Assembly: GCA_030390025.1 (NCBI GenBank)
Contig: JASTWF010000335.1
Location: forward strand, 248,001-312,000
Direction: 5' to 3'
Length of the DNA stretch: 64,000 bases
From: Squalus acanthias
Lineage: Eukaryota
The notes beneath the pieces were generated by a model, which saw nothing but the letters and a program-made list of their open reading frames with translations, was not told the origin of the DNA and made no database searches. The position numbers and the translations under genes were made by a program. This document shows positions 3,041-45,800 of the stretch, one piece after another. Every line of letters starts with the position of its first letter. The first letter of the stretch is position 1.

Positions 3041-3789
3041 GTACACTTAATGGCACAGTTTTAAAGAGTGTGCAGGGAAAGAGGGACCTGGGAGTTAATG
3101 TGCATCGGTCCCTGAAGGTGGCAGGACAAATTGAGAGAGTGGTTAGCAAAGCATATGGGATCTTGGGCTTCATAAATAGAGGTATTGAGTACAAAGGTAG
3201 AGAAGTTATGCTGAACCTTTATAAAGCGCTGGTTAGGCCACAACTTGAGTATTGCGTCCAGTTCTGGTCACCACACTTTAGGAAGGATATGAAGGCCCTT
3301 GAGAGGGTGCAGAGCAGATTTACCAGAATTGTTCCGGGGATGGGGGATCTTAACTCCAAGGACAGATTGGAGAAGCTGGATTTGTTTTCATTAGAGCAAA
3401 GGAGGTTGAGGGGTGATTTGATAGAGGTGTGCAAGATTATGACGGGTTTGGATAGGCTAGACGGGGAAAGGCTGTTCCCACTAGTTGATGGTACAAGGAC
3501 TAGGGGACACAGATTGAAGGTTTTGGGCAAGAGATACAGGGGGGGATGTGAGCAAAATCTTTTTTATGCAGCGAGTGGTGAGGACCTGGAACTCGCTGCC
3601 GACGGAAGTGGTGGAAGCGGAGACACGCAATGTTTTCAAGGGGAGACTGGATAGGCACTTGAGGGAAATAAGCTTGCAGGGCTACGGGGATAGAAAGAGG
3701 AATGGGGCTGACTGGATTGCTCTACAGAGAGCCGGCACGGACTCGATGGGCTGAATGGCCTCCTTTTGTGCCGTTATGACTCTATGACT

Positions 3790-5585: not shown

Positions 5586-5589
5586 GATG

Positions 5590-6682: not shown

Positions 6683-6763
6683 ACCCAACCCACGTTAAAC
6701 CTGCCTTGCGTGAACAGTGCTGTGGAAGACGGCGATCCCTCAGAGTTCAGTAAAATCCCTTAC

Positions 6764-6848
6764 CGATCACGTCAACAGAAGCAAAGCAGAAGTTCAGGTC
6801 AGAGAGCGAGCGGGGCCTCAGTCACTGGGTGACAGCTGCAAACCATTC
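6764..6848 (-). other. Candidate non-coding (5'UTR) exon 2 of an unidentified minus-strand gene, containing a 15-codon uORF
   Basis: Unique sequence between repeats. Acceptor tttctgtgcttgtgtttcag|, donor cg|gtaagg. All three frames contain stops. The ATG at 6846 gives MVCSCHPVTEAPLAL*. Confidence 0.6.
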
Positions 6849-7023
6849 CTGAAACACAAGCACAGAAACCCGGCAAAATCAGTGGGCTGTTTTCTGTAGC
6901 TTCTCTCGGAACACGAGCAGGATTAGGCCGTACGGCCCGTCGAGCCTGCTCCGCCATTCAATGATTAATGGAGTCGAGGGGGGAATCGAGGGAATATGGG
7001 GATTGGGCGGGAAGGTGGAGTTG

Positions 7024-17493: not shown

Positions 17494-18939
17494 CATAGAA
17501 CATAGAACAGTACAGCACAGTACAGGCCCTTCGGCCCTCGATGTTGTGCCGAGCATTGTCCGAGACCAAGATCAAGCTATCACACTCCCTATCACTCTGG
17601 TGTGCTCCATGTGCTTATCCAATAACCGCTTGAAAGTTCCTAAAGTGTCCGACTCCACTATCACAGCAGGCAGTCCATTCCACACCCCAACCACTCTCTG
17701 AGTAAAGAATCTACCTCGGACATCCCTTCTATATCTCCCCCCATGCACCTTATAGTTATGCCCCCTTGTAACAGCTGCCTCTACCCGAGGAAATAGTCTC
17801 TGAACATCCACTCTATCTATCCCCCTCATCATCTTATAAACCTCTATTAAGTCGCCTCTCATCCTCCTCCGCTCTAAAGAGAAAAGCCCCAACTCCCTCA
17901 ATCTTTCCTCATAAGACCTCCCCCCCAAACCAGGCAGCATCCTGGTAAATCTCCTTTGCACTCTTTCCAATGCTTCCACGTCCTTCCTATAGTGAGGTGA
18001 CCAGAACTGCACACAATATTCCAAATGTGGTCTCACCAAGGTCCTGTACAGTTGCAGCATAACCTCACGGTTCTTAAACTCAAACCCTCTGTTAATAAAC
18101 GCCAACACACCATAGGCCTTCTTTACTGCTCTATCCACTTGAGTGGCAACCTTCAGAGATCTGTGGATATGAACCCCCAGATCCCTCTGCTCCTCCACGT
18201 TCCTCAGAACCCTGCCGTTGACCCTGTAATCCTTATTCAAATTTGCCCTACCAAAATGAATCACCTCGCACTTATCAGGGTTAAATTCCATCTGCCATTT
18301 TTCGGCCCAGCTCTGCATCCTATCAATGTCTCTTTGCAGCCTACAACTGCCCTCCACCTCATCCACTACTCCACCAATCTTGGTGTCATCAGCAAATTTA
18401 CTGATCCACCCTTCAGTCCCCTCCTCCAAGTCATTGATAAAAATCACAAACAGCAGAGGACCCAGCGCCGACCCCTGTGGCACACCGCTGGTAACTGGTC
18501 TCCAGTCCGAAAATGTTCCATCCACCACCACCCTCTGCCTTCTATGAGATAGCCAGTTACTTATCCAATCGGCCAAATTTCCCTCTATCCCACAACTCCT
18601 TACTTTCTTCATGAGACGACCATGGGGAACCTTATCAAACGCCTTACTAAAATCCATGTATACGACATCAACTGCTCTACCTTCATCTACACACTTAGTT
18701 ACCTCCTCAAAGAATTCAATCAAATTTGTTACGCAAGACTTACCCTTCACGAATCCGTGTTGACTATCCCTGATTAAGTTGCCCCTTTCCAAATGGTCAT
18801 AAATCCTATCCCTCAGGACCTTTTCCATTATCTTACCAACCACCGAAGTAAGACTAACCGGCCTATAATTACCAGGGTCATTCCTATTTCCTTTCTTGAA
18901 GAGAGGAACAACATTCGCCACTCTCCAGTCCTCTGGCAT
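17494..18939 (-). mobile_element. Young 5'-truncated CR1 with an uninterrupted RT ORF, inserted into the 3' end of another LINE
   Basis: Open frame PEDWRVANV...FADDTK...stop at 17572, with a catagaa repeat tail. CAT appears at both junctions. The host element (17450-17493 plus 18940-19152) rejoins across it. Confidence 0.92.
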
Positions 18940-19179
18940 CCTGACTCGGAAATATATCGGCCGTTCCTTCATCGTCGCTGGGTCAAAATCCTGGAACTCG
19001 CTCCCTAACAGCACTGTGGGAGTACCTTCACCACACGGACTGCAGCGGTCGAAGAAGGCGGCTCACCACCACCTTCTCCAGGGGCAATTAGGAATGGGCA
19101 ATAAATGCTGGCCTTGCCTTCAATGCCCACATCCCGTGAATGAATAAAAAAATATACATCTATGATCTGGACATGGGTA

Positions 19180-22274: not shown

Positions 22275-22563
22275 TATCTCCGTACATGTAACTTTAATAT
22301 TTAAATATATACAGAGCGCCTCTTCTCTCAGCAGGGGTATAAACACTCGAAGCATTTTCGCATCGATGGACATTTTCTGTTAAACCTGCTATTGCTGCGT
22401 TAAAGGCAAACGTTTCATTTCCCCACAGCGAGGCTCACGGGGTTTTTACCGTCCGTCTCCCGCCACCTGAGTAAAGCAACAGTGCATGTGTGTTTTTTTT
22501 CTTTCTTTCTAGGGCCTGGCATCGAAACTCCTGGGCGTCGCATCGTCTCAGGCCTCTTCATTA
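22275..22563 (-). other. ms4a: Putative terminal exon of the MS4A-like gene: TAA stop (22563-22561) and 3'UTR
   Basis: Acceptor cttgtcctttttaaacag|TAA. Unique sequence with an ATTAAA poly(A) signal variant at 22298-22293 on the minus strand. The 3' end is approximate. Confidence 0.62.
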
Positions 22564-22879
22564 CTGTTTAAAAAGGACAAGCCATGAATTAGCACGATCT
22601 ACAACGGAGAGAGCGCGTTGATTGTTAAAACAGGCGTGGGAGTCACATCGGGAAGGGTCCAGTGGCCCCATCAGGCTTCCTGCACCTACTGGAGTGCTCT
22701 TGCACAGTCCATGGGGGGTGTGGTGGAGGGAAACACACACACACACACACACACACACGTACAAAAACAGGCGGTTTCGCATCGGTTGCCTGTTATACAC
22801 TCCATCCCGTCAGTTCCGTTGACGACAGTAGAGCCGAACATCGGGCATGTCCTGTAACAATCAGCCAATGTGATTCCGC

Positions 22880-23945
22880 CTGTCGTACCATGGAGCACTC
22901 CCCTCCTCTTCTTTCAATAGCAGCCGTGGGATCTTTTAACTCCATCTGAGAGGGCAGACGGGGCCACGGTTTAACCGAAAGACGGCACCTCCGACAGTGC
23001 ACCACTTCCTCAGTACTGCCCTGTCGGTGGGGCAATACTGAGGAAGAGCTGCACTGTCGGAGGGGCAGTACTGAGGAAGAGCTGCACTGTCGGAGGGGCA
23101 GTACTGAGGGAGTGCTGCACTGTCGGAGGGGCAGTACTGAGGAAGAGCTGCACTGTCGGAGGGGCAGTACTGAGGAAGAGCTGCACTGTCGGAGGGGCAG
23201 TACTGAGGAAGAGCTGCACTGTCGGAGGGGCAGTACTGAGGGAGTGCTGCACTGTCAGAGGGGCAGTACTGAGGGAGCGCTGCACTGTTGGAGGGGCAGT
23301 ACTGAGGGTGTGCTGCACTGTTGGAGGGCCAGTACTGAGGGAGCGCTGCACTGTCGGAGGGGCAGTACTGAGGGAGCGCTGCACTGTCGGAGGGGCAGTA
23401 CTGAGGGAGCGTCGCACTGTCGGAGGGGCAGTACTGAGGGAGCGCTGCACTGTCGGAGGGCCAGTACTGAGGGAGCGCCGCACTGTCGGAGGGGCAGTAC
23501 TGAGGGAGCGCCGCACTGTCGGAGGGCCAGTACTGAGGGAGCGCTGCACTGTCGGAGGGGCAGTACTGAGGGAGCGCTGCGCTATCGGAGGGGCAGTACT
23601 GAGGGAGCATTGTACTGTCGGAGGTGCCGTCTTTCGGATGAGACGTTAAACCGAGGTTCCCCTTCTGCCCTCTCGGATGGACGTTAAAGATATCACGGCC
23701 ACTACTGGAAGAAGAGCAGGGCAGTTCTCCCCTGTGTCCTGGGGTAATATTTATCACTCAACCAAAATCACTAAAGCAGATGGTCTGGTCATTTATCACA
23801 TTGCTGTTTGTGGGAGCTTGCTGTGTGCAAATCGTCTGCTGCATTTCCTACATTACAACAGCGACTGCCCTTCAAAAGTACTTCATTGGCTACTAAAGCA
23901 CCTCGGGACATCCTGAGGTTGTGAAAGGCGCTATGTAAATGGGAG
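22880..23945. mobile_element. Two divergent Deu-domain SINE halves joined by a 33-bp minisatellite array
   Basis: Minus-strand Deu segment at about 22900-23020, plus-strand 33-bp array at 23025-23620, then plus-strand Deu core ggaggtgccgtctttcggatgagacgttaaaccgagg through the 3' end gtgaaaggcgctat (about 23935). Confidence 0.8.
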
Positions 23946-24255
23946 ATCTTCCTCGCCTGACCCTAATATCTCAATCTTTGTTCCTCTCCCGATCACCTCC
24001 ACTAATTGCAGGCGTGGCAGTAAAATCCCCAGCCTGGTGACAAAACGGTTCACGACGCTCTCTGTTTACATGTGGAAAGACCCGGACACAGGAACAGGAG
24101 GAGGCCATTCAGCCCCTCGGGCCGGATCAGCCGTTCGGTGAGATCACGGCTGATCTGCGACCTAACTCCTCGCAGCCGCCTTTTCCCCTCATCCCTTAAC
24201 ACCTTTGTGAGAAGTCGCACAACACCAGGTTATAGTCCAACAGCTTTATTTGAAA

Positions 24256-24292
24256 TCACAAGCTTTCGGAGCGCTGCTCCTTCGTCAGGTGA
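24256..24292 (-). ncRNA. Minimal type I hammerhead ribozyme motif
   Basis: Exact reverse complement of 24514-24550. Confidence 0.8.
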
Positions 24293-24513
24293 AGTGAAGA
24301 GATGCATATAGGCACAGCATATATAGTCAGAGAACACTGCCAGGTGACTACAGTTAATCTTTCTAACTGCCCTTTATCACACCTCGGCAGACCTGTGATT
24401 GCCGTGATTATCTCTCTGCCGAGGTGCGATAAAGGGCAGTTAGAAAGATTAACTGTAGTCACCTGGCAGTGTTCTCTGACTATATATGCTGTGCCTATAT
24501 GCATCTCTTCACT

Positions 24514-24550
24514 TCACCTGACGAAGGAGCAGCGCTCCGAAAGCTTGTGA
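24514..24550 (+). ncRNA. Minimal type I hammerhead ribozyme motif
   Basis: UCAC-CUGACGA-a-GGAGC agc GCUCC-GAAA-GCUU-GUGA: both conserved core boxes, a 5-bp stem II, a 4-bp stem I and a palindromic AGCU in place of stem III. Confidence 0.8.
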
Positions 24551-24892
24551 TTTCAAATAAAGCTGTTGGACTATAACCTGGTGTTGTGCGACTTCTCACA
24601 TTTGTCCACCCCAGTCCAACACCGGCATCTCCACATCATCATCTTTAACACCTTTGGTTGACAAAAATCTATTAATCTCTGATTTGAAATGAACAATTGA
24701 CCCAGCATCAACTCCTGTTTGTGTGTCGAAGTGTTTCTTAACTTCACTCCTGAAATGCCTGGCTCTAATTTTTCGGTAATCATTCTGGTAAATCTACACT
24801 GCACTCCCTCCAAGGCCAGTATATCCTTCCGATTTTCCACACCGCCTCTCTCCCGTCTACCCTCCAGTGGCCGCGACCCAGCATCGACTTAC

Positions 24893-24985
24893 GTGCTTGC
24901 AGATGATGATGGCAACCAGAAGGGCGATGAAAATCTCCACCACAGAGTATAGAAAAAGCAAGGCCAATATAAACATCGGTGCTCG
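24893..24985 (-). CDS. ms4a: MS4A/CD20-family protein, coding exon 5 (TM4): RAPMFILALLFLYSVVEIFIALLVAIIICKH
   Basis: ttttattctttcccgcccccacag| ... CAC|gtaagt; 93 nt, phase 0/0. Hydrophobic helix with the MS4A-type L..S.LE..IA...C pattern. Confidence 0.85.
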
Positions 24986-25433
24986 CTGTGGGGGCGGGAA
25001 AGAATAAAATAGCATTGGTCAATCGAGTGCTGCTGGTGAAAGCAATCTATTTTTCGTTTCGGCCAATAGCGTACAAGTGAAATTCGACTGAACGGAAAAT
25101 GCAAACGGAACAGTTTTACCCCCCTGACCCTCTGACACCTGTCGAGCCTGGCAATGCTGTGGGGCTTGTGGGGAACATAGGAACGGGAGGAGGCCATTCA
25201 GCTCCTTCGAGCCTGTTCCGCCATTCAATGAGATCACGGCTGATCTGTATCCTCACTCCATCCACCCGCCTTGGCTCCATATCTCTTTATACCCTGGGCT
25301 AGCAAAAAAATCTATCGATCTCGATTTAAAGTGATTAATTGAGCTCGTGCATCTACTGCTTTTTGTGGGAGAGAGTTCCACACTTCTACCACCCTATGCG
25401 TGTAGAAGTGTTTCCTAACTTCTCTCCTGAATG

Positions 25434-25682
25434 TAATGTTTTCCTGACTGACCTGTTTGGACACCATCCACACCTTTGATTGCCGTGATTATCTCTCTGC
25501 CGAGCTGTGATAAAGGGCAGTTAGAAAGATTAACTGTAGTCACCTGGCAGTGTTCTCTGACTATATATGCTGTGCCTATATGCATCTCTTCACTTCACCT
25601 GACGAAGGAGCAGCCGCTCCGAAAGCTTGTGATTTCAAATAAAGCTGTTGGACTATAACCTGGTGTTGTGCGACTTCTCACA
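25434..25682 (+). mobile_element. Solo Penelope-like pseudo-LTR with a hammerhead motif (25595-25632)
   Basis: Same sequence as the arms at 24.2-24.6 kb. 13-bp TSD TCTCTCCTGAATG at 25421-25433 and 25683-25695. The hammerhead has a 1-nt longer loop II. Confidence 0.85.
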
Positions 25683-26157
25683 TCTCTCCTGAATGGCCTG
25701 GCTCTGATTTTAAGGTTATGTCCCCCTTGTCCTAGACTGCCCCCGCCCCCCCCCCCCACAACAGCGGGAAAAAGTTTCTCTCTGTCTAACTCCATCAATT
25801 CCTTTCAAAATCCTAAAAAAACCTCAATCACATCGCCCCCTTAACCTTCTATATTCCAGGGAATACAAGCCTAGTTTGTGTAATCTCTGCTCGTAATCTG
25901 ACCCTTGGAGCCCTGGTAACAGTCTGGTGAATCTGCGCGGCACTCCCTTTTCCAAGGCCAATATGTCCTTTCTAAGGTGCGGTGCCCAGAACTGTACACA
26001 GTCCACCGGGTGTGGTCTAACCAGGGCTTTGTATAGCTGTGGCAAAACTTCCTCCCCTTTATATTCTAGCCCTCCAGTGATAAAGGCTAACATTCCATCA
26101 GCCTTTTTTTGATTATTTTTTGCACCTGACCCACTACATTTTAATGATTTGTGTACA

Positions 26158-26930
26158 GGAAGGCAGATTATTATCTGAATGGCAATAGATTGGGAGACGG
26201 GGAAGTGCAACGAGACCTGGGTGTCCTTGTGCACCAGTCGCTGAAGGTAAGCATGCAGGTGCAGCAGGTGGTGAAGAAGGCAAATGGTATGTTGGCCTTC
26301 ATAGCGAGAGGGTTTGAGTATAGGAACAGGGATGTCCTGCTGCAGTTGTACAGGGCCTTGGTGAGACCACACCTTGAGTACTGTGTGCAGTTTTGGTCGC
26401 CTTATCTGAAGAAGGAGGATCTTGCCATGGAGGGAGTGCAGCGAAGATTCACCAGGCTGATACCTGGGATGGCAGGAATGACGTATGAGGAGAGATTGGG
26501 GCGATTGGGCATATACTCGCTGGAGTTTAGAAGAATGAGAGGCGATTTCATCGAAACTTATAAAATTCTGAAAGGACTGGACAGACTAGATGCAGGAAGG
26601 ATGTTCCCGATGGTCGGGGAGTCCAGAACCAGGGGTCACAGTCTAAGGATAAGGGGTAAGCCATTTAGGACAGAAATGAGGAGGAATTTCTTCACCCAGA
26701 GAGTGGTGAACCTGTGGAATTCTCCACCACAGAAGGCAGTTGAGGCCAAGTCAGTAAATATATTCAAGAATGAGTTAGATATATTTCTTAAAGCTAAAGC
26801 TATCAAGGGATATGGGGAGAAGGCAGGTACAGGGTACTGAGTTTGGATGATCAGCCATGATCTCATCGAATGGCGGAGCAGGCTCGAGGGGCCGAATGGC
26901 CTACTGCTATGTTCTATGTTTCTATGTTTC
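26158..26930 (+). mobile_element. 5'-truncated CR1 (intact C-terminal ORF and tail)
   Basis: ORF 26151..26840 and a ctatgtt tail. TACA is repeated at both junctions. Confidence 0.9.
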
Positions 26931-27499
26931 TACATGGACCCCGAGATTTCTTTGGATCGGCACTGTTCCTAGCTTTTCACCATTTATCCTTTTCTCTCTC
27001 TCTACCCCTATCAATTCTGTTCAAAGGCAGTGCTTGATCCACCTGGGATGTTTCTGTTCCTGGGCCCACTGTGTGAGCGTGGCGGCCCCTTCCCGCAGTT
27101 TGGAGCCTGGGAGAATTCCGCCCTTGCGTTGGGTGCGGCGACGGCTGCGAATGCGATGGCAGTGAATAGGCAGTAAGGTGGCGGGTACTGATAGCAGGTT
27201 TGGTGCGTGTCCTGGCCAGAATGACGGGGACCAATTTGGCCCCGCCCAGTAGCTGCCACTCCACCCGCCGCCCCCCCCCCCCCAGCCAGTACCGAATTCC
27301 AGGTTGGCTTATTTACAGGGAGCGGGCGGGCGGGATCTGGCATGAGTGGCAATCCCGTCAGATGATGCCAGCCCCCACGTTTGCCTGGCCGCGCCCCCCC
27401 CCCAGACCACTGAATATTCAGGCTGCCCCCCACACAGCAATGTCCCAAGATGCACAAGAAACAGTGGTTCTTTCGGCACACTATGGCTGCCGTGGCAAC

Positions 27500-27895
27500 A
27501 GAGACCAGGGATGGAGCCTGGGCCTCTCCTGCTCTGTGTGTGTGTGGGGGGCTCAGTAACACACCAGGTGTGAGATCAGCTCACTCAGCACTAGGCCGAG
27601 AATGGAGCCTGGGGCTCTCCTGCTCTGTGTGTGTGTGGGGGGCTCAGTAACACACCAGGTGTGAGATCAGCTCACTCAGCACTAGGCCGAGAATGGAGCC
27701 TGGGCCTCTCCTGCTCTGTGTGTGTGTGTGTGGGGCTCAGTACCACACCGGGTGTGAGATCAGTTCACTCAGCACAGGCCGGGGATGGAGCCTGGGCCTT
27801 TCCTGCTCTGTGTGTGGGGGGCTCAGTACCACACCGGGTGGGAGATCAGCTCACTCAGCACTAGGCCGGGGATGGAGCCTGGGCCTCTCCTCTCC
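27500..27895 (-). repeat. About 90-bp tandem repeat (4-5 units) of a tRNA-like SINE head
   Basis: Reverse complement of the unit at 60500-61048; it contains a variable (tg)n tract. Confidence 0.8.
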
Positions 27896-28091
27896 CGTGC
27901 AGCTTGGCTCTAACAAGTTCCCCAGAACAGAGGCCTCAGGCAATCAGCAGTACGATCGCTAAAGGAAGAAGGGTCAAGCAACACTGCTCCGCGGGAAAGC
28001 ACTTCTTAGAACACATGCCGCGCAAGGGCGCTGAGTAAACTGCTGCGGCGCAGGATACGAAACGACAGCAGCGAGCGAGGGCGGTACTTAC

Positions 28092-28205
28092 TGCGACGTA
28101 AATGGCAGTGCCCGATCTAGACAGCAAGGTTGAGATGATGAACACCACAGCTCCGAGGGCCGCCGCGATCGCACTGACGAAATTAAAGATCATTGTCAAC
28201 TTTCT
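28092..28205 (-). CDS. ms4a: MS4A/CD20-family protein, coding exon 4 (TM3): RKLTMIFNFVSAIAAALGAVVFIISTLLSRSGTAIYVA
   Basis: ccctctgcgttgttttcag| ... GCA|gtaagt; 114 nt, phase 0/0. Matches the MS4A TM3 motif N..SA..A..G. Confidence 0.88.
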
Positions 28206-28304
28206 CTGAAAACAACGCAGAGGGACAGGTGAAGAACTGAAATACTGCCACTCAGAAACAGATTCTAAATCAGCAGGTACAGCGATGAACATCCCCTCAC
28301 CTAC

Positions 28305-28646
28305 AACCTGCATTTATACGACGCCTGGAACGCTGTAAAAACTACAACAACGTGCATTGATACAGCACCTTTAACGTAGTAAAACGGCCCAAGGCGCTTC
28401 ACAGGAGCGATTACCAAACACAATTTGACACCGAGCCGCATAAGAAGATATTAGGACAGGTGACCAAAAGCTTCGTCAAAGAGGTAGGTTTTAAGGAGGG
28501 TCTTAAACGAGAAGATGGGGGCGGAGAGGTTTCGGGAAGGAATTCCAGAGCTTAGGGCCTCGGCAGCTGAAGGCACGGCCGCCAATGGTGGAGCGATTAC
28601 ATTCGGGGGATGCGCAAGAGGCCAGAGTTGGAGGAGCGCCGAGATC
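28305..28646 (-). mobile_element. L2-type LINE 3' fragment
   Basis: Minus strand reads ...FKTLLKTYLFD.AF, with an end ttactacgttaaaggtgctgtat. It continues after the CR1 insert at about 29217. Confidence 0.7.
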
Positions 28647-29216
28647 ATAGAATCACAGTAGAAAGTTACAGCACGGAAGGAGGCCATTTCGGCCCATCGT
28701 GTCCGCGCCGGCCAACAAAGAGCTATCCAGCCTAATCCCACTTCCCAGCGCTTGGTCCGTAGCCCTGCAGGTTAGAGCATCCCAAGTGTACATCCAAGTA
28801 CTTTTTAAATGTGGTGAGGGTTCCTGCCTCTACCACCCTTTCAGGCAGCGAGTTCCAGACCCCCACAACCCTCTGGGTGAAGAAATTTCCCCTCAAATCC
28901 CCTCTAAACCTTCCACCAATTACTTTAAATCTGTGCCCCCTGGTTTTTGACCTCTCTGCTAAGGGAAATAGGTCCTTTCTATCCACTTTATCTATGCCCC
29001 TCATAATTTTATACGCCTCAATAAGGTCTCCCCTCAGCCTCCTCTGTTCCAAGGAAAACAGACCCAGCCTATCCAGTCTTTCCTCATAGCTAAGATTCTC
29101 TACTCCCGGCAACATCCTTGTAAATCTCCTCTGTACCCTCTCTAGTGCAATCACATCTTTCCTGTAATGTGGTGACCAGAAACTGCACGCAGTACTCTAG
29201 CTGAGGCCTAACTAGT
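28647..29216 (-). mobile_element. CR1 3' fragment inserted in the L2 fragment
   Basis: ORF 28732..29154(-). GATC is duplicated at 28643-28646 and 29217-29220. Confidence 0.88.
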
Positions 29217-29220
29217 GATC

Positions 29221-29472
29221 TCGGAGGGTTGTAGGGATGAACAGACTCGGAGGGTTGTAGGAATGAACAGACTCGGAGGGTTGTAGGGATGAACAGACTC
29301 GGAGGGTTGTAGGGATGAACAGACTCGGAGGGTTGTAGGGATGAACAGACTCGGAGGGTTGTAGGGATGAACAGACTCGGAGGGTTGTAGGGATGAACAG
29401 ACTCGGAGGGTTGTAGGGATGAACAGACTCGGAGGGTTGTAGGGATGAACAGACTCGGAGGGTTGTAGGAAT
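29221..29472. repeat. 26-bp minisatellite (about 9.5 units) seeded at an L2 motif
   Basis: Unit tcggagggttgtagggatgaacagac. Confidence 0.93.
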
Positions 29473-29929
29473 GTCAGGTGTGTGTCAGTGACGGCTGCCC
29501 AGCCCGTGGCTAGTTTCAAGTAGATGGCCATCCTTTCATCTCTGGGACAGTGTAGAGGGAGGGGCTCCCACATCCCAATACAATGTGGGGGGGCGGGGGG
29601 AGGGGAGACATCCACACCCCCCACACGGGAGTATCTCTCTGGCAGTCAACCCCGAATTCAGAGTCTGCGCTCGCAGGGATTGTCTGGGACCGGGTTCGAA
29701 TCCTGCACCTTCCGAATCGGAGAATCGCTCCGCGCCAAGACTGAAAATGGGGCTGCAGCGCCGGAGCATGGACTGCTGTTCAGAACGGGAGGGGAACAGA
29801 ACTTGGTGTTTTTTCCCCCCCCCACACGGGTCGAACAGTTTGCAAAGCTATCGGAATCTGCCAAAACTCCCAACTTCAGAAGCACTGGATTGGCTGTGAA
29901 TCGATTTGGAGCAGCCCGAGGCTGTGAAA

Positions 29930-31362
29930 GGCGCGAGAGACATGCAAGTCTCTCTTTCCAGTCTCAAAGCGCATCACAACAATCAAGCACTTGTTTTTGT
30001 GAAGTGTAGTCACTGTTGAAATGTAGGAAAAACGGCAGCCAATTTGCACACAGCAAGCTCCCACAAACAGCAATGAGTTAAATGACCAGATCATCTGTTT
30101 TAGTGATTTTGGTTGAGTGATAAATATTACCCCGGGACACAGGGGAGAACACCACTGCTCTTCTTCCAGTAGTGGCCGTGATATCTTTTACTTCCATCCG
30201 AGAGGGCAGAAGGGGAACCTCGGTTTAACTTCTCATCCGAAAGACGGCATCTCCGACAGTACAATGCTGCTTCAGTACTTCCCCTCCGACAGTGCAGCGC
30301 TCCCTCAGTACTGACCCTCCGACAGTGCAGCGCTCCCTCAGTACTGACCCTCCGACAGTGCAGCGCTCCCTCAGTACTGACCCTCCGACAGTGCAGCGCT
30401 CCCTCAGTACTGACCCTCCGACAGTGCAGCGCTCCCTCAGTACTGACCCTCCGACAGTGCGGCGCTCCCTCAGTACGGCCCCTCCGACAGTGCAGCGCTC
30501 CCTCAGTACTGCCCCTCCGACAGTGCGGCGCTCCCTCAGTACTGCCCCTCCGACAGTGCAGCGCTCCCTCAGTACTGACCCTCCGACAGTGCAGCGCTCC
30601 CTCAGTACTGACCCTCCGACAGTGCGGCACTCCCTCAGTACTGACCCTCCGACAGTGCAGCGCTCCCTCAGTACTGCAGCTCCAACAGTGCAGTACTCCC
30701 TCAGTACTGACCCTCCGACAGTGCAGCGCTCCCTCAGTACTGACCCTCCGACAGTGCAGCGCTCCCTCAGTACGGCCCCTCCGACAGTGCAGCGCTGCCT
30801 CAGTACTGACCCTCCGACAGTGCAGCGCTCCCTCAGTACTGCCTCTCCGACAGTGCAGCGCTCCCTCAGTACTGCAGCTCCAACAGTGCAGTACTCCCTC
30901 AGTACTGCCCCTCCGACAGTGCAGCGCTCCCTCAGTACTGACCCTCCGACAGTGCAGCGCTCCCTCAGTACGGCCCCTCCGACAGTGCAGCGCTGCCTCA
31001 GTACTGACCCTCCGACAGTGCAGCGCTCCCTCAGTACTGACCCTCCGACAGTGCAGCGCTCCCTCAGTACTGACCCTCCGACAGTGCGGCGCTCCCTCAG
31101 TACTGTCCCCTCCCACAGTGCAGCGCTCCCTCAGTACTGACCCTCCGACAGTGCAGCGCTCCCTCAGTACTGACCCTCCGACAGTGCGGCGCTCCCTCAG
31201 TACTGTCCCCTCCGACAGTGCGGCTCTCCCTCAGTACTGACCCTCCGACAGTGCAGAGCTCCCTCAGTATTGGCACCGCGGAGTGATAGCCTGGATTATG
31301 GCGCTTGAGTCGGGTTTGAACCCACGCTCTGAGCCAGAGTGCTACCCACTGAGCCACGGCTG
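29930..31362 (-). mobile_element. Deu-domain SINE with an internal 33-bp array of about 30 units
   Basis: tRNA-like head at 31362-31275 (gtggctcagtgg...gggttcaaaccc), array at 31270-30255, Deu core and tail at 30255-29930. Confidence 0.88.
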
Positions 31363-31498
31363 CCTGGGCACAAGGAGTCTGCCAACCAATGGCCATTTAC
31401 AAAGGTCTCCACGACAGCAAGTTGGCAGACGCTTTTCGGTTCGTACCCCCTCTCCCCTCATTCGGTGCTCAGTGCTGGTTTATCGCTGCTGTACTTAC

Positions 31499-31555
31499 CA
31501 CACGCTGCTCTGGTTGGTCGACATTTAGCATCGTCAGTGCTCCTGAAATCACAAA
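31499..31555 (-). CDS. ms4a: MS4A/CD20-family protein, coding exon 3 (end of TM2): FVISGALTMLNVDQPEQRV
   Basis: ttttgttgctttgtccctgttgcag| ... GTG|gtaagt; 57 nt, phase 0/0. FVISGAL corresponds to the MS4A F/Y-IISGSL motif. Confidence 0.9.
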
Positions 31556-31657
31556 CTGCAACAGGGACAAAGCAACAAAAGAGTGTAAGATGGCTGCCCG
31601 CCGGTGCTGAAGCACAACAGAGCGGGATGGAAATTCCGCTCCCTCCAATATCATGTA

Positions 31658-32970
31658 TGTGAGAAGTCGCACAACACCAGGTTATAGTCCAACAGCTTTA
31701 TTTGAAATCACAAGCTTTCGGAGCGCTGCTCCTTCGTCAGGTGAAGTGAAGAGATGCATATGGGCACAGCATATATAGTCAGAGAACACTGCCAGATGAC
31801 TACAGTTAATCTTTCCGACTGCCCTTTATCACAGCTCGGCAGAGAGATAATCACGGCAATCAGAGGTGTGGATGGTGTCCAAACAGGTCAGTCAGGAAAA
31901 CATTACATCAAAGACAATGAGGTGGGGTCACAAGGGGGTCAATGTGGCAGATGCTGGGGTCTGTATGGAAAACAAAAAACTGTTTTTGCTGGAAATCACA
32001 GCAGGTCCGGCCGCATCTGTGTAGAGAGAACAAGCCAACGACGACTCGAGTCTGGATGACTCTACGTCAGGTGGGGTTACATGTAGCGTGACATGAACCC
32101 AAGATCCCGGTTGAGGCCGTCCTCATGGGTGCGTAACTTGGCTATCAGTTTCTGCTCGACGATTTTGCGTTGTCGTGTGTCTCGAAGGCCGCCTTGGAGA
32201 ACGCTTACCCGAAGATCGGAGGCTGAATGTCCTGGACTGCTGAAGTGTTCCCCGACTGGGAGGGAACACTCCTGCCTGGCGATTGTTGCGCGGTGTCCGT
32301 TCATACGTTGTCGCAGTGTCTGCATGGTCTTGCCGATGTACCATGCTCCGGGGCATCCTTTCCTGCAACGTATGAGGTAGACAACGTTGGCCGAGTCACA
32401 TGAGTATGTACCATGTACCTGGTGGGTGGTGTCCTCACGTGTGATGATGGTATCTGTGTTGATGATCTGGCATGTCTTGCAGAGGTTGCCGTGACAGGGT
32501 TGTGTGGTGTCGTGGTCGCTGTTCTCCTGAAAGCTGGGTAATTTGCTGCAAACGATGGTACTTTTGAGGTTAGGCGGCTGTTTGAAGGCGAGTAGTGGGG
32601 GCGTGGGGATGGCCTTAGCGAGGTGTTCGTCGTCATCGATGACATGTTGAAGACTGCGAAGAACATGGCGTAGTTTCTCCGCTCCAGGAAAATATGACAC
32701 CAAAGTCAATGAGGTGGGGTCACAAGGGGTCAAATGTGGCAGATGCTGGGGTCTGTATGGAAACAAAAAACTGTTTTTGCTGGAAATCACCTGGCAGTGT
32801 TCTCTGACTATATATGCTGTGCCTATATGCATCTCTTCACTTCACCTGACGAAGGAGCAGCGCTCCGAAAGCTTGTGATTTCAAATAAAGCTGTTGGACT
32901 ATAACCTGGTGTTGTGCGACTTCTCACATTTGTCCACCCCAGTCCAACAACCGGCATCTACACATCACGG
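31658..32970 (-). mobile_element. 5'-truncated Penelope-like element with GIY-YIG endonuclease and inverted pseudo-LTRs
   Basis: ORF 32077..32832(-): PLLAFKQPPNLK, C..C..C, NVVYLIRC...WYIGKT..TLRQRMNGHR, PVGEHF, GLNRD. 13-bp TSD CCAATATCATGTA at 31645-31657 and 32971-32983. Hammerhead motifs at 31708-31744(-) and 32842-32878(+). Confidence 0.92.
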
Positions 32971-33009
32971 CCAATATCATGTAGAAACGCATCAAAATCA
33001 AAGCGCCAC

Positions 33010-36334: not shown

Positions 36335-36448
36335 CAGTATTCCTGACCACCATGGGACCCACAATCGAATGGCAACTACATACGGCGCCGAGAAATACAA
36401 TGGGACACCAAATGTCAAGTGAATCAGTCCCAGCATGATCTGCACAAC
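36335..36448 (-). CDS. ms4a: MS4A/CD20-family protein, coding exon 2 (TM1 to TM2): VVQIMLGLIHLTFGVPLYFSAPYVVAIRLWVPWWSGIL
   Basis: ctctgtgtcactctgttgtag| ... CTG|gtttgt; 114 nt, phase 0/0. LG|VVQIMLGL and PWWSG match the MS4A motifs LG..QI..GL and P.WGG. Confidence 0.9.
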
Positions 36449-36569: not shown

Positions 36570-38085
36570 AAAAGCTTTCCATTTATATACCACCTATCAC
36601 CTGAGGGAAAGGAATTTACACGGAGCCTTTCCCGACAGCAGGACACACACCAAAGCATTTTACAGGCAAGTGTAGTCAATGCTATAATGTAGGGAAATAC
36701 GGCAGCCAATCTGCGCACAGCAAGGTCCCAAAAATAGCAATGAGATAATAACCACATCATCTGTTTTTTTTAAGTGACGTTGGTTGAGGGATAAATATTA
36801 CGCACAGGACACCAGGGAGAATTACCGGCTCTTTTTCCAATAGTGGCCGTGGGATCTTTTACAGTCACCTGAGAGGGCAGACGCGGCCTCGGTTTAACGT
36901 CTCATCCGAAAAACGGCATCTCCGACAGTGCAGCGCTCCCTCAGTACTGCCCCTCCGACAGTGCAGCGCTCCCTCAGTACTGACCCTCCGACAGTGCAGC
37001 GCTCCCTCAGTACTGCCTCTCCGACAGTGCAGCGCTCCCTCAGTACTGCCTCTCCGGCAGTGCAGCGGAGCTCCCTCAGTACTGCCCCTCCGACAGTGCG
37101 GCGCTCCCTCAGTACTGCCTCTCCGACAGTGCGGCGCTCCCTCAGTACTGCCTCTCCGACAGTGCGGCGCTCCCTCAGTACTGCCTCTCCGACAGTGCGG
37201 CGCTCCCTCAGTACTGCCTCTCCGACAGTGCGGCGCTCCCTCAGTACTGTCCCTCCGACAGTGCAGCGCTCCCTCAGTACTGTCCCTCTGACAGTGCAGC
37301 GCTCCCTCAGTACTGATCCTCCGATAGTGCAGCACTCCCACAGTACTGATCCTCCGACAGTGCAGCGCTCCCTCAGTACTGATCCTCTGACAGTGCAGCG
37401 CTCCCTCAGTACTGCCCCTCCCACAGTGCAGCTCTCCCTCAGTACTGCCCCTCCGACAGTGCAGCGCTCCCTCAGTACTGCCCCTCCGACAGTGCAGCTC
37501 TCCCTCAGTACTGCCCCTCCGACAGTGCAGCGCTCCCTCAGTACTGCCCCTCCGACAGTGCAGCGCTCCCTCAGTACTGACCCTCCGACAGTGCAGCTCT
37601 CCCTCAGTACTGCCCCTCCGACAGTGCAGCGCTCCCTCAGTACTGACCCTCCGACAGTGCAGCGCTCCCTCAGTACTGCCCCTCCGACAGTGCAGCGCTC
37701 CCTCAGTACTGCCCCTCCGACAGTGCAGCGCTCCCACAGTACTGATCCTCCGATAGTGCAGCGCTCCCTCAGTACTGCCCCTCCGACAGTGCGGCGCTCC
37801 CTCAGTACTGCCCCTCCGATAGTGCAGCGCTCCCTCAGTACTGCCCCTCTGACAGTGCGGCGCTCCCTCAGTACTGCCCCTCCGACAGTGTAGCGCTCCC
37901 TCAGTACTGATCCTCCGACACTGCAGCGCTCCCTCAGCACTGCCTCTCCCATAGTGTAGTGCTCCCTTAGCACTGGCACCAGGCAGTGTCGGCCTGGATT
38001 CTGGGGCTCGAGTCGCTAGAGTGGGGCTCGAACGCACGACCTTCTGGCTGAGAATCGAGAGCAACACCACTGAGCCACGGCTGAC
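36570..38085 (-). mobile_element. Deu-domain SINE with an internal 33-bp array of about 32 units
   Basis: Head at 38085-37980 (gtggctcagtgg...gttcgagccc), array at 37975-36920, Deu core and tail to about 36570. Confidence 0.88.
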
Positions 38086-39548: not shown

Positions 39549-39884
39549 CGTATTATTCCAAGACCTGCCTTGTGACAACGGCAATGTTCTGATGAATGGT
39601 CATCGACGAACTCTGTTTCTCTCTCCACAGATGTTGCCTGACCAGCTCTGTATTTCCACTTTTTATTGCCGCTTTCCAGATTACAAAGTTTTGTAGCAAT
39701 GCTAAGAGCATTTTGTAAACCTAACAACGAACCCCAACATCCGAATCACGAACCAAAAACACCCGAACCACTAACTCCAGCAACCTAACCACGAAACCTA
39801 ACACTGCCCTTAATCCCAACACCCGAACCACTGCCCTTAATCCCAACACCCGAACCACGACCCTGAACCATGAATATCCCGAAC

Positions 39885-42800
39885 CAAATCCCGACACCCT
39901 GTCCCTCACCCAGACTCCCCGTCCCTCGCCCCGACTCCCCGTCCCTCGCCCCGACTCCCCGTCCCTCGGCCCGACACCCCGTCCCTCGCCCCGACTCCCC
40001 GTCCCTCGCCCCGACTCCCCGTCCCTCGCCCCGACACCCCGTCCCACGCCCCGACTCCCCGTCCCACGCCCCGACTCCCCGTCCCACGCCCCGACTCCCC
40101 GTCCCACGCCCCGACTCCCCGTCCCACGCCCCGACTCCCCGTCCCACGCCCCGACTCCCCGTCCCACGCCCCGACTCCCCGTCCCTCGCCCCGACTCCTC
40201 CTCCCTCGCCCCGACTCCCCGTCCCTCGCCCCGACTCCCAGTCCCTCGCCCCGACTCCCCGTCCCTCGCACCGACTCCCCGTCCCTCGCCCCGACTCCCC
40301 GTCCCACGATCCGACTCCCCGTCCCTCGCCCCGACTCCCCTGTCCCTCGCCCCGACTCCCTGTCCCTCGCCCCGACTCCCTGTCGCTCGCCCCGACACCC
40401 TGTCCCTCGCCCCGACTCCCTGTCCCACGCCCCGACTCCCTGTCCCTCGCCCCGACTCCGTCCCTCGCCCCGACTCCCTGTCCCACGCCCCGACATCCTG
40501 TCCCTCGCCCCGACTCCCTGTCCCTCGCCCCGACTCCCTGTCCCACGCTCCGACTCCCTGTCCCACGCCCCGACTCCCTGTCCCTCGCCCCGACATCCTG
40601 TCCCTCGCCCCGACACCCTGTCCCTCGCCCCGACTCCCTGTCCCTCGCCCCGACTCCCTGTCCCTCGCCCCGACACCCTGTCCCTCGCCCCGACACCCTG
40701 TCCCTCGCCCCGACTCCCGGTCCCACGCCCCGACTCCCTGTCCCTCGCCCCGACTCCGTCCCTCGCCCCGACTCCGTCCCACGCCCCGACTCCCTGTCCC
40801 TCGCCCCGACACCCTGTCCCTCACCCCGAAACCCTGTCCCTCGCCCCGACACCCTGTCCCTCGCACCGACACCCCGTCCCTCGCCCCGACTCCCCGTCCC
40901 TCGCCCCGACTCCCCGTCCCACGCCCCGGCTCCCCGTCCCTCGCCCCGACTCCGTCCCTCGCCCCGACTCCGTCCCTCGCCCCGACTCCGTCCCTCGCCC
41001 CGACTCCCTGTCCCTCGCCCCGACACCCTGTCCCTCACTTCGACTCCCTGTCCCTCACCCCGACTCCCTGTCCCTCACCCCGACTCCCTGTCCCTACCCT
41101 GTCCCTCGCCCCGACTCCCTGTCCCACGCCCCGACACCCTGTCTCTCAGCCCGACACCCTGTCCCTCGCCCCGACACCCTGTCCCTCGCCCCGACACCCT
41201 GTCCCTCGCTCCGACTCCCTGTCCCCCGCCCCGACTCCCTGTCCCCCGCCCCGACTCCCTGTCCCCCGCCCCGACTCCCTGTCCCCCGCCCCGACTCCCC
41301 GTCCCCCGCCCCGACTCCCCGTCCCTCGCCCCGACTCCCTGTCCCTCGCCCCGACTCCCTGTCCCTCGCCCCGACTCCCTGTCCCTCGCCCCGACTCCCT
41401 GTCCCTATCCTGTCCCTCGCCCCGACTCCCTGTCCCACGCCCCGACTCCCTGTCCCTCGACCCGACTCCGTCCCACGCCCCGACTCCCGGTCCCTCGCCC
41501 CGAAACCCCGTCCCTCGCCCCGACACCCCGTCCCTCGCACCGACTCCCCGTCCCTCGCCCCGACTCCCCGTCCCTCGCCCCGACTCCCCGTCCCTCGCAC
41601 AGACACCCCGTCCCTCGCCCCGACTCCCCGTCCCACGCCCCGACTCCGTCCCACGTCCCGACTCCCTGTCCCACGCCCCGACTCCCTGTCCCTCGCCCCG
41701 ACTCCCTGTCCCTCGCCCCGACTCCCTGTCCCTCGCCCCGACTCCCTGTCCCTCGCCCCGACTCCCTGTCCCTCGCCCCGACTCCCTGTCCCTCGCCCCG
41801 ACTCCCTGTCCCTCGCCCCGACTCCCTGTCCCTCGTTCCGACTCCCTGTCCCTCGCCCCGACTCCCTGTCCCTCGCCCCGACTCCCTGTCCCTCGCCCCG
41901 ACTCCCTGTCCCTCGCCCCGACTCCCTGTCCCACGAACCGACTCCCTGTCCCTCACCCGACTCCGTCTCACACGCCCCGACTCCCTGTCCCTCGCCCCGA
42001 CTCCCTGTCCCACAAACCGACTCCCTGTCCCTCACCCCGACTCCCTGTCCCGCACCCCGACTCACTGTCTCTCACCCCGACTCCCTGTCCCTCACCCCGA
42101 CACCCTATCCCTGACCTCGACACCCTATCCCTGACCCCGCCACCCTATCCCTGACCCCGCCACCCTATCCCTGACCCCGGCACCCTATCCCTGATCCCGG
42201 CACCCTATCCCTGACTCCGACACCCTATCCCTGACTCTAACCCTATCCCTAACACCGACACCCTATCCCTGACCCCGATACCCTATCCCTGACCTCGACA
42301 CCCTATCCCTGACCCCGACACCCTATCCCTGACTCTGAGACCCTTTCCCTAACACCGACACCCTATCCCTGACCCCGACACCCTAATCCTGACCCCGACA
42401 CCCTATCCCTGACCCCGACACCCTATCCCTGACCCCGACACCCTATCCCTGACCCCGACACCCTATCCCTGACCCCGACACCCAACCCTGACCCCGACAC
42501 CCTATCGCTGACTCTGAGACCCTATCCCTGACCCCGACACCCTATCCCTGACTCCGACACCCTATCCCTGACCCCGACACCCTATCCCTGACTCCGACAC
42601 CCTATCCCTGACTCCGACACTCTATCCCTGACCTCGACACCCTATCCCTGACCCCGACACCCTATCCCTGACCCCGACAGCCTATCCCTGACCTCGACAC
42701 CCTATCCCTGACCCCGACACCCTATCCCTGACCCCGACACTCTATCCCTGACGTCGACACTCGAACTCTGACACCAAACACTCGAAGCCTGACCCCCAAC

Positions 42801-45800
42801 ACTCGAACCCTGACCCCGACAATCGGACCCTGACCCCGACATCTTATCCCTGACCCCAACACCCTATGCCTGACCTCGACACCCTATCCCTGACCCCGAC
42901 ACACTATCCCTGACCCCGACACCCTATCCCTGACCTCGACACCCTATCCCTGACCCCGACACCCTATCCCTTACATCGACACCCTATCCCTGACCCCGAC
43001 ACCCTATCCCTGACCTCGACACCCTATCCCTGACCCCGACACCCTATCCCTTACATCGACACCCTATCCCTGACCCCGACACCCTATGCCTGACCTCGAC
43101 ACCCTATCCCTGACCCCGACACCCTATCCCTGACCCCGACACCCTATCCCTGACCCCGACACCCTATCCCTGACCCCGACACCCTATCCCTGACCCCGAC
43201 ACCCTATCCCTGACCCCGACACCCTATCCCTGACTCTGAGACCCTATCCCTGACCCCGACACCCTATCCCTGACCCCGACACACTATCCCTGACTCCGAC
43301 ACCCTATCCCTGACCTCGACATCCTATCCCCGACCCCGACACCCTATCCCTGACCTCGACACCCTATCCCTGACCCCGACACCCTATCCCTGACCCCGAC
43401 ACCCTATCCCTGACTCTGAGACCCTATCCCTGACCCCGACACCCTATCCCTGACCCCGACACCCTATCCCTGACTCTGAGACCCTTTCCCTAACACCGAC
43501 ACCCTATCCCTGACCCCGATACCCTATCCATGACCCCGACACCCTATCCCTGACCCCGACACCCTATCCCTGACTCTGAGACCCTTTCCCTAACACCGAC
43601 ACCCTATCCCTGACCACGACACCCTATCCCTGACCCCGACACCCTATCCCTGACCCCGACACCCTATCCCTGACTCTGAGACCCTATCCATGACCCCGAC
43701 ACCCTATCCCTGACTCTGAGACCCTATCCCTGACCCCGACACCCTATCCCTGACTCTGAGACCCTATCCATGACCCCGACACCCTATCCCTGACCCCGAC
43801 ACCCTATCCCTGACCCCGACACCCTATCCCTGACTCTGAGACCCTATCCCTAACACCGACACCCTATCCCTGACCCCGACACCCTATCCCTGACTCCGAC
43901 ACCCTATCCCTAACACCGACACCCTATCCCTGACTCTGAGACCCTTTCCCTAACACCGACACCCTATCCCTGACCCCGACATCCTATCCATGACCCCGAC
44001 ACCCTATCCCTGACCCCGACACCCTATCCCTGACCCCGACACCCTATCCCTGACTCTGAGACCCTATGCCTAACACCGACACCCTATCCCTGACCCCGAC
44101 ACCCTATCCCTGACCCCGACACCCTATCCCTGACCCCGACACCCTATCCCTGACCCCGAGACCCTATCCCTCACACCGACACCCTATCCCTGACTCCGAC
44201 ACCCTATCCCTGACTCCGACACTCTGTCCCTGACCTCGACACTCTGTCCCTGACCTCGACACTCGAACTCTGACCCCAAACACTCGAAGCCTGACCCCCA
44301 ACACTCGAACCCTGACCCCGACAATCGGACCCTGACCCCGACACCCTATCCCTGACCCCGACACCCTATCCCTTACATCGACACCCTATCCCTGACCCCG
44401 ACACCCTATCTCTTACACCGACACCCTATCCCTGACCCCGGCACCCTATGCCTGACCTCGACACCCTATCCCTGACCCCAACACCCTATCCTTGAACTCG
44501 ACACTCGAACCCTGACCCCCCAACACTCAAACCCTGACCCTCAACACTCGAACTCTGACCCCTCACCCTATCCCTGACCCCGACACTTGAACCCTGACCC
44601 CGACACGCTATCCCTCTCCCCGACACCCTATCCTGACCCCGACACCCTATCCCTGACCCCGACACCCTATCCATCTCTCTGACACCCTATCTCTCTCCCC
44701 GACACCCTATCCATCTCTCCGACACCCTATCCCTGACCCCGACACCCTATCTCTCCCCCCGACACCCTGTCCATCTCCCCGACACCCTATCAGCGAATCA
44801 GCGAATCAGCGAATAGTACAGCACAGAAGGAGGCCATTCGGCCCATCGAGTATGTGCCGGCTCTTTCGAAGAGCAACCCAGTTAGTCCCACTCCCCTGCT
44901 CATTCCCCAAACCCCTGCAATGTTTTCTCCTTCCAGTATTTATCCAATTCCCTTTTGAAGGCTGCTATTGAATCTGTATCCACCAGCCTATCAGGCAGTG
45001 TATTCCAAACCACTCGTTACATAAACAGGTTTTTCCTCTATCAATCTCAGTTTCTCACACACACAGAATCCCCACAGTACAGATAGAGGCCATCTCGGCC
45101 CATCGAGCCTGCACCGACACATATCCCACCCTATCCCCGTGTATTTAATTCCCCCTAACATATCCCAACCTATCCCCGTAACCCCACATATTTAATCCCC
45201 CCCGAACACTATCCCTTCCCCAGACACCCTATCAATCTCCCCGACACCCTATCAATCTTCCCGACAGCCTATCCCTGACCCCGACACTTGAACCCAGACC
45301 ACCACACCCTATCCATCTCCCCGACACCCTATCCCTCCCCCCGACACCCTATCCCTCCCCCGACACCCTATCCCTCCCCCGACACCCTATCCCTCCCCCG
45401 ACACCCTATCCCTCCCCCGACACCCTGTCCATCTCCCCAACACCATAACCCTCCCTGCAACACCCTATCAATCTCCCCGACACCCTATCGCTCCCTATCC
45501 CTCCCCCGACACCCTGTCCATCTCCCCGACACCCTATCCCTCTCCCCGACACCCTATCCATCTGCCCGACACCCTATCCCTCCCCCCGAGACCCTATCCA
45601 TCTGCCCGACACCCTATCCCTCTCCCCGACACCCTATCCCTCCCCCCCGACACCCTATCCCTCCCCCCGACACCCTATCCCTCCGGATCCCTTCCCCCGA
45701 CACCCTATCCCTCTCCCCGACACCCTATCCCTCCCCCCGACACCCTATCCCTCCGGATCCCTTCCCCCGACACCCTATCCCTCTCCCCGACACCCTATCC

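What the first reader, a model, noticed from the sequence alone, without database searches (positions are those of the whole stretch)
24206..32970. Family of Penelope-like elements carrying five minimal hammerhead ribozymes, all inside MS4A introns
Seen: the motif UCAC-CUGACGA-a-GGAGC.agc.GCUCC-GAAA-GCUU-GUGA occurs at 24256-24292(-), 24514-24550(+), 25595-25632(+), 31708-31744(-) and 32842-32878(+). These sit in three insertions with clean TSDs of 10-13 bp, and one insertion still encodes a GIY-YIG endonuclease. Established: Penelope pseudo-LTRs carry minimal type I hammerheads whose stem III shrinks to a palindrome (here AGCU, predicted cleavage after CUU) and that are thought to act as dimers. 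Inference: this is a recently active family caught in three architectures (solo pLTR, fold-back, ORF-bearing). Two motifs are sense to the MS4A pre-mRNA.
Basis: partly seen in the sequence, partly recalled or inferred. Interest (0 to 1): 0.8.

Follow-up and report, generated by a model that had tools for sequence, protein, structure and literature searches.

The report
Shark Penelope retroelement hammerhead copies
The five motifs are minimal hammerhead-ribozyme sequences carried by three young, truncated copies of a very abundant Penelope-like jumping gene, a known kind of element, and they likely do nothing to the MS4A gene they landed in, because the two that face the gene's direction are predicted to be locked in hairpins with their own mirror copies.

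Summary
Observation confirmed: five motifs, three insertions (TSDs 12, 13, 13 bp), a GIY-YIG fragment, and an MS4A gene on the minus strand (two insertions surely intronic, one likely). They belong to a Penelope-like family, probably Neptune, with over 65,000 arms in this shark-type genome and near-full-length RT+EN copies elsewhere. Across subfamilies the core is fixed and stem I covaries, so the hammerhead fold is selected in the element. This is a known kind; the scan noted it before in other genomes. Corrections: the three 'architectures' are truncation products of one process, the endonuclease piece has no RT, and both gene-sense motifs are predicted fully paired with their antisense arm. 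Added here: 95 of 98 two-armed insertions carry exactly one 40-nt tail; arm 5' ends peak at an initiator-like A seven bases before the core, 30 nt after a TATA box; at most about 1.5% of arms start at the cut site. Most copies therefore likely come from uncut RNA copied back to its 5' end. A decayed sixth hammerhead from another family follows the ORF. Cleavage itself was not tested.

The parts
24206..24644 (.). Insertion 1: two-armed (fold-back) insertion; left arm 24206-24391 reads on minus without tail, right arm 24388-24640 reads on plus with the 40-nt tail
   Evidence: TSD 24196-24207 / 24645-24656
24256..24292 (-). Minimal hammerhead 1, sense to MS4A; predicted duplexed with the right arm
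24481..24517 (+). TATA-like box (24481) and initiator-like TCACTTC; its A (24511) is the predicted transcription start, 7 nt before the CUGA core
   Evidence: spacing 30 nt; modal 5' end of genomic arms; promoter function inferred
24514..24550 (+). Minimal hammerhead 2, antisense to MS4A
24601..24640 (+). 40-nt tail; in a full-length copy it runs into the ORF's ATG
25434..25682 (+). Insertion 2: single 5'-truncated arm without tail, inside another repeat
   Evidence: TSD 25421-25433 / 25683-25695; contigs joining 25402 to 25683
25595..25632 (+). Minimal hammerhead 3 (4-nt loop II AGCC, a recurrent variant, 7 of 93 arms), antisense to MS4A
31658..32970 (.). Insertion 3: minus-strand arm (ORF end + 3' UTR + pLTR, 31657-32694), a 106-nt duplicated UTR piece at the junction (32685-32790), and an inverted plus-strand arm with tail (32787-32970)
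   Evidence: TSD 31645-31657 / 32971-32983
31708..31744 (-). Minimal hammerhead 4, sense to MS4A; predicted duplexed with the inverted arm
32034..32074 (-). Decayed hammerhead relic of another Penelope family right after the stop codon; core broken at A9, A14, A15.1
32077..32694 (-). 5'-truncated ORF end: CX4CX2C linker, GIY-YIG domain with CCHH residues; no RT
   Evidence: (587 of 618 bases identical to full copy L070)
32842..32878 (+). Minimal hammerhead 5, antisense to MS4A
36335..36448 (-). MS4A-like host exon (CD20 domain start)
31509..31565 (-). MS4A-like host exon (includes acceptor flank)
   Evidence: AG/GT ends, weak matches to three paralogues
28092..28205 (-). MS4A-like host exon
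24894..24985 (-). MS4A-like host exon, ends in a GTAAGT donor
22548..22598 (-). Candidate last coding exon (in frame, ends in stop); inferred only
   Evidence: acceptor-like site; no paralogue match, no RNA support

Best explanation
These are three young, truncated insertions of an abundant Penelope-like retrotransposon whose terminal repeat carries a minimal hammerhead motif, likely made by copying uncut element RNA onto both strands of a target site, and predicted to be inert passengers in the MS4A gene. Shown: full-length copies are partial tandems in which the order is TATA-like box, initiator-like site, hammerhead, 40-nt tail, ATG, one RT+GIY-YIG ORF, 3' UTR, and the same repeat again. 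Inferred: transcription starts at the A seven bases before the core, so the ribozyme is the first thing in the RNA. The protein nicks both strands 12-13 bp apart and primes one cDNA on each, one from the start site before the tail and one from the end of the tail (two internal start sites were shown in vitro for the anole element). When it uses the repeat at the RNA's 5' end the cDNAs run out after about 90-130 nt, at or just short of the start site, and are joined head to head: the common mini fold-back. When it uses the downstream repeat it gives longer arms like insertion 3. The ribozyme is kept by selection on the element and would cut after CUU only as a dimer or with protein help; cut RNA is rarely the template.
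For: Copy number: 65,258 exact 34-mers of the 3' end, 21,574 core-pattern matches against 7 for the reversed control. Full copy L070: 921-codon frame, ATG 120 nt after the core, two same-strand motifs 3,120 nt apart, RVT_1 E 1.3e-8. In 93 of 162 arms not chosen by the ribozyme (the rest truncated in it or lacking a shared upstream flank) fixed core positions vary 1.3% against 22% in the 20 nt upstream; N7, H17 and loop II vary freely; stem I pair 3 is C-G 62, U-A 21, U-G 7, unpaired 3. Pair count on 56 distinct rows: 94.4% paired, 21 double changes, 0 of 500 shuffles. A second family in the genome has other stems and the palindrome ACGU. Tail rule 95 of 98 one tail, 0 two, 3 none; TSD 12-13 bp in 62 of 98. 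5' ends: 46 of 98 anchor-picked arms end between -12 and +25 of the core, 1 near the cut site; mode at -7 (19) and -6 (14) among 93 ends within 20 nt. Gene-sense motifs fully paired to the far arm. Literature: PMC4209133, PMC11167929, PMC8557442, PMC3846280.
Against: No cleavage, start site or transcript strand was measured. The -7/-6 peak is partly explained by 1-4 nt microhomology with the opposite arm, and some -6, -12, -18 calls are subfamily variants. Reverse-transcriptase stalling at the fold would give a similar pile-up. The outermost stem I pair is unpaired in 13 of 56 rows, U4 is C in 7 of 93 arms, and stem II has almost no double change inside the family; related sequences can beat the shuffle control. 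Rfam finds no hammerhead. The window and its gene cluster are richer in arms than average (5 against 1.1 expected; 15 against 3.4 in 195 kb; the local count allowed mismatches, the expectation did not). Arms starting at the cut site are about twice as common as at neighbouring positions.
Confidence: 0.8

Rival explanations
1. The short fold-backs are a separate non-autonomous family (a MITE- or retrozyme-like unit) that is copied as a whole, so the three architectures are three kinds of element.
For: 76 of 98 two-armed insertions span 300 bp or less; a few junctions recur.
Against: Junctions differ from copy to copy and arms track whichever subfamily they come from, both arms usually the same; lengths form a continuum up to kilobases; no same-strand tandem units as in retrozymes in the window.
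Confidence: 0.1
2. The motif is selected as a protein-binding or reverse-transcriptase stop structure at the RNA's 5' end and no longer cleaves in vivo.
For: At most about 1.5% of arms start at the cut site; in the anole element core mutants did not impair insertion in vitro and no reads ended at the site (PMC11167929); in vitro rates of minimal motifs are low (PMC4209133).
Against: The positions held fixed are exactly the catalytic ones, while N7, loop II and H17 (U or C, never G in 93 arms) vary; the anole motif does cleave when its protein is present.
Confidence: 0.2
3. The two gene-sense motifs, 7.4 kb apart in different introns, pair and cut the MS4A pre-mRNA and so tune the gene.
For: Both have intact cores and are sense to the gene; the cluster is rich in arms; conserved intronic hammerheads exist in amniotes (PMC6155905).
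Against: Each is transcribed after its own antisense arm and predicted fully duplexed; the insertions are very young; a tandem model dimer fold scored worse than two monomers (-17.5 against -21.1 kcal/mol); intronic copies are expected for a family this abundant.
Confidence: 0.04

Closest known systems
Minimal hammerheads in pLTRs of metazoan Penelope-like elements (Cervera and de la Pena 2014, PMC4209133; abstract, results and discussion read)
   Same: Type I, 4-bp helix I, extra A before helix II, G10.1-C11.1, palindrome in place of helix III, thousands of mostly single truncated copies, opposite-strand pairs 100-700 bp apart, found in Xena, Poseidon and Neptune of fishes.
   Different: Helix II is 5 bp here; sharks are not named in the parts read (its supplements were not opened); copy number (over 21,000 cores) exceeds the 4,000-9,000 given for coelacanth and Xenopus.
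EN+ Penelope-like elements of the Neptune/Nematis type (Craig et al. 2021, PMC8557442, passages; Arkhipova et al. 2013, PMC3846280, passages)
   Same: One ORF with RT then GIY-YIG, CCHH motif, CX2-5CxxC linker, partial tandems, inverted 5'-truncated copy, 30-40 bp tail at one end, TSD; a TATA box and TCACT initiator-like site were noted in a rotifer pLTR.
   Different: Here the tail ends at the ATG itself, one-tail insertion is close to a rule (95 of 98), and the 3' UTR holds a dead hammerhead of another family. Neptune versus Nematis was not settled by a tree.
PAc, Poseidon element of the green anole (Frangieh et al. 2024, PMC11167929; abstract and main text read)
   Same: Two internal reverse-transcription start sites flanking the tail, both strands nicked and extended, uncut RNA as main template, AT-rich targets.
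   Different: Other clade; in PAc the ORF starts inside the ribozyme and the start sites lie 111-118 nt into the ORF, here the ribozyme is wholly in the 5' UTR, 120 nt before the ATG.
Non-LTR retrozymes (bioRxiv 10.64898/2026.07.22.740005; introduction, methods and passages read)
   Same: pLTR-related sequence with a type I hammerhead, non-coding short copies, reported in one cartilaginous fish.
   Different: Retrozymes are head-to-tail tandems with a motif in each unit; these copies are single or head-to-head.

Membership tests
EN+ Penelope-like element | Single ORF with RT followed by C-terminal GIY-YIG endonuclease | tested here: met
   L070 frame of 921 codons, RVT_1 E 1.3e-8; C-terminus aligns to a PF01541-bearing homologue. 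The window copy holds only the ORF end.
EN+ Penelope-like element | [quoted passage not shown] | tested here: met
   VVYLIRCRKGCPGAWYIG ... NGHR ... GEHF in the translation
EN+ Penelope-like element | Partial tandem forming direct pseudo-LTRs | tested here: met
   L070: two same-strand repeats 3,120 nt apart; not present in the window itself
EN+ Penelope-like element | Inverted 5'-truncated copy, 30-40 bp tail at one end, TSD | tested here: met
Neptune/Nematis type | CX2-5CxxC linker between RT and EN | tested here: met
   CHGNLCKTC in the translation; definition from PMC8557442
Neptune clade | RT phylogeny groups with Neptune references | not tested
   No labelled reference set in hand; Neptune is preferred because vertebrate PLEs were reported as Neptune or Poseidon and Poseidon lacks the linker
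Minimal type I hammerhead | Core boxes CUGANGA and GAAA, UH, extra base before helix II, G10.1-C11.1 | tested here: met
Minimal type I hammerhead | Helices I and II kept by compensatory change; palindrome at helix III | tested here: met
   AGCU here and ACGU in a second family. Strong for one stem I pair, weak for stem II within the family.
Minimal type I hammerhead | Self-cleavage as dimer or with protein | not testable with these tools
   Needs a bench assay; genomic 5' ends give at most a weak hint
Rfam hammerhead families | Covariance-model match | tested here: not met
   No hammerhead family at E <= 1
Non-LTR retrozyme | Head-to-tail tandem units each with a hammerhead | tested here: not met
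   Window copies are single or head-to-head
Domesticated intronic hammerhead (RECK type) | Canonical motif free to fold in the host pre-mRNA | tested here: not met
   No helix III; both sense motifs predicted fully duplexed
Domesticated intronic hammerhead (RECK type) | Conserved at the orthologous site across species | not testable with these tools
   No related genome is held; near-identity of the arms points to recent insertion

The most novel reading that the evidence does not exclude
This family's tens of thousands of mini fold-backs are a fossil record of the Penelope insertion reaction: a TATA/initiator promoter puts the hammerhead at the very first bases of the RNA, an asymmetric protein dimer primes one strand from each of two fixed start sites (hence exactly one tail per insertion), both copies run to the capped end, and the small excess of arms beginning exactly at the cut site is a genomic trace of cleavage in vivo.
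Probability: 0.35. Interest if true: 0.55.

Novelty: new member of a known kind. Interest (0 to 1): 0.27.

Why it matters
As found, it is one more shark example of a described element, and its place in MS4A is probably incidental. Its use is as material: how Penelope elements form inverted insertions and what their ribozyme does are still open, and a young family with over 65,000 arms lets both be tested by counting breakpoints and with a near-intact ORF in vitro.

Tried and rejected
Rfam: no hammerhead match. Pfam and PDB sequence search of the window's endonuclease piece: nothing. Idea that two same-strand motifs 3.1 kb apart in L031 mark a full element: wrong, it is a duplicated locus. Idea that copies pile up at the cut site: 0 of 97 aligned arms at it in the first sample; genome counts of transversion-type letters at -3, -2, -1, +1, +2 are 252, 270, 594, 449, 373 against 62,294 arms; samples of 20, 20, 30, 20, 20 give about 151, 162, 436, 247, 186 truncations, and 8 of the 22 at the cut site are stem I junctions with the opposite arm: a weak bump, not proof. 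Cap-derived G before the -7 end: 13 of 19 have G, but most of these can come from the opposite arm, so not claimed. Intact form of the relic motif: 0 of the 100 listed among 2,597 matches. Searches were one column out of register and were replaced by 82 and 88; one search timed out; the palindrome-duplex line used the wrong slice and is ignored. Local folding z-scores of the motif are not significant (-0.3 to -1.0). RNA: no RNA holder was listed for the candidate last exon; three runs only guessed to be RNA gave no cover or joints on the MS4A exons and short contigs in all 30 bins of the full element, which shows neither strand, start nor level. Lunse et al. on dimer cleavage was not held; I saw it only as cited in PMC6765202. 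Searches for a shark-specific description listed none; supplements and Repbase were not seen, and the family may be catalogued there.
Full report
Observation. They sit in three insertions with TSDs of 12, 13 and 13 bp. Insertion 1 is two arms head to head, insertion 2 one arm, insertion 3 a long minus-strand arm, a 106-nt duplicated piece of its own UTR and a short inverted arm. The arms differ at 0-2 of 142 bases. Rfam does not recognise the motif.

Host gene. A CD20-like exon lies at 36335-36448 on the minus strand (E 1.3e-6), one of four such exons on this contig. Three more exons with AG/GT ends match the neighbouring paralogues weakly. Insertions 2 and 3 lie between these exons. Insertion 1 lies beyond the last sure donor; an in-frame candidate exon at 22548-22598 would make it intronic, but it has no paralogue match and no RNA support.

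The family. The exact 38-mer occurs 11,588 times in the 3.7-Gb genome, the core pattern 21,574 times against 7 for the control, the 3' anchor 65,258 times. A protein search found open frames up to 921 codons. Locus L070 is a partial tandem: repeat, ATG at the end of the tail, RT and GIY-YIG ORF, repeat; the two motifs are 3,120 nt apart. The window's ORF piece is 587 of 618 bases identical to its end. The closest named homologues are from sharks, 80-94% identical. The CX4CX2C linker and CCHH residues fit Neptune/Nematis as defined in PMC8557442; no tree was built.

Is the fold selected? Among 162 arms picked by protein, 3' anchor or ORF-end motif, 93 keep the whole motif with a shared upstream flank. 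Their fixed core positions vary 1.3%, the 20 upstream bases 22%; N7, H17 and loop II vary; stem I pair 3 switches C-G to U-A through U-G (the parser favours a match to the motif, which can lower core variation). On 56 distinct rows, two of them from a second family with other stems and the palindrome ACGU, 94.4% of cells pair and 21 change on both sides, 0 of 500 shuffles. Against: the outer stem I pair fails in 13 rows, stem II shows almost no double change within the family, and rows are related. This matches the consensus features in PMC4209133.

How the copies form. Of 98 two-armed insertions, drawn from several pattern searches mostly on the first two contigs and including a few duplicated loci, 95 have exactly one tail, none two, three none; 62 have TSDs of 12-13 bp. 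A tail at one end is described, and two internal start sites flanking the tail, used on both strands, were shown for the anole element. Of 98 anchor-picked arms, 38 run 60 or more bases upstream of the core, 12 end at -59 to -13, 25 at -12 to 0, 21 inside the motif, 1 near the cut site and 1 beyond. Among 169 arms with an intact motif (34 of other subfamilies left out), 93 end within 20 nt upstream, 19 at -7 and 14 at -6. Position -7 is the A of TCACTTC, 30 nt after TATATATG, which fits a textbook TATA/initiator promoter (consensus recalled); a similar pair was noted in a rotifer element, while the Drosophila promoter is TATA-less. RNA starting at -7 is predicted to form stem I (P about 0.5), RNA starting at -60 not (0.02). 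I infer that most mini insertions are cDNAs run to the RNA's 5' end; microhomology and stalling at the fold also contribute and cannot be separated here.

Is cut RNA used? Letters incompatible with the element directly before the cut site occur in 594 of 62,294 arms, against 252, 270, 449 and 373 at neighbouring positions. After sampling, about 436 versus 151-247 are truncations, and a third of the sampled ones at the site join through stem I complementarity. Doubling for undetected letters gives at most about 1.5% of arms. Uncut RNA is thus the main template, as in vitro.

Effect on MS4A. On the gene's strand each sense motif is preceded by its antisense arm; folding gives 100% pairing to that arm and none of the ribozyme stems. 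The region is richer in arms than average, but the window was picked for that and repeat density is uneven. I judge them passengers.

Sixth motif. Right after the stop lies a hammerhead-like sequence with a broken core, fixed in the family: 2,597 matches, none intact among the 100 listed, further eroded in other subfamilies. The sequence behind it matches the second family's repeat, so the 3' UTR is likely a capture of an older element end.

Verdict. A real, well-supported, known kind of element; earlier scan notes on other genomes say the same. The one-tail count and the start-site peak are modest additions that make the insertion mechanism testable.

Noticed in passing
window 39580-39665 (+): Worn piece of the second Penelope-like family (ACGU-palindrome type) with a deleted hammerhead core; 81-86% match to L021/L073.
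   Followed up: partly
L021:2262-2317 (+), L073:5685-5740 (-): A second hammerhead family in this genome with other stems and palindrome ACGU; copy number not counted.
   Followed up: partly
G000:C2617:228000-393000: Tandem cluster of at least four MS4A-like genes on the minus strand, with 15 arms of this family in 195 kb.
   Followed up: partly
window 32077-32841 (-): The junction of insertion 3 makes a chimeric open frame of 254 codons, with an ATG in the inverted arm in frame with the endonuclease end, on the MS4A strand; no sign of use.
   Followed up: no
window 24080-24860 and 25170-26160: Insertions 1 and 2 both landed inside other repeats, with similar sequence near their sites; contigs show the empty form of site 2.
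   Followed up: partly
window 22950-23650, 30250-31270, 36930-37970, 3670-5200: Long arrays of a 33-bp unit inside a common repeat, and 20-bp arrays at about 39800-44700.
   Followed up: no
window 17572-19062 (-): A 496-codon open frame that looks like a CR1/L2-type reverse transcriptase (label recalled, not searched).
   Followed up: no
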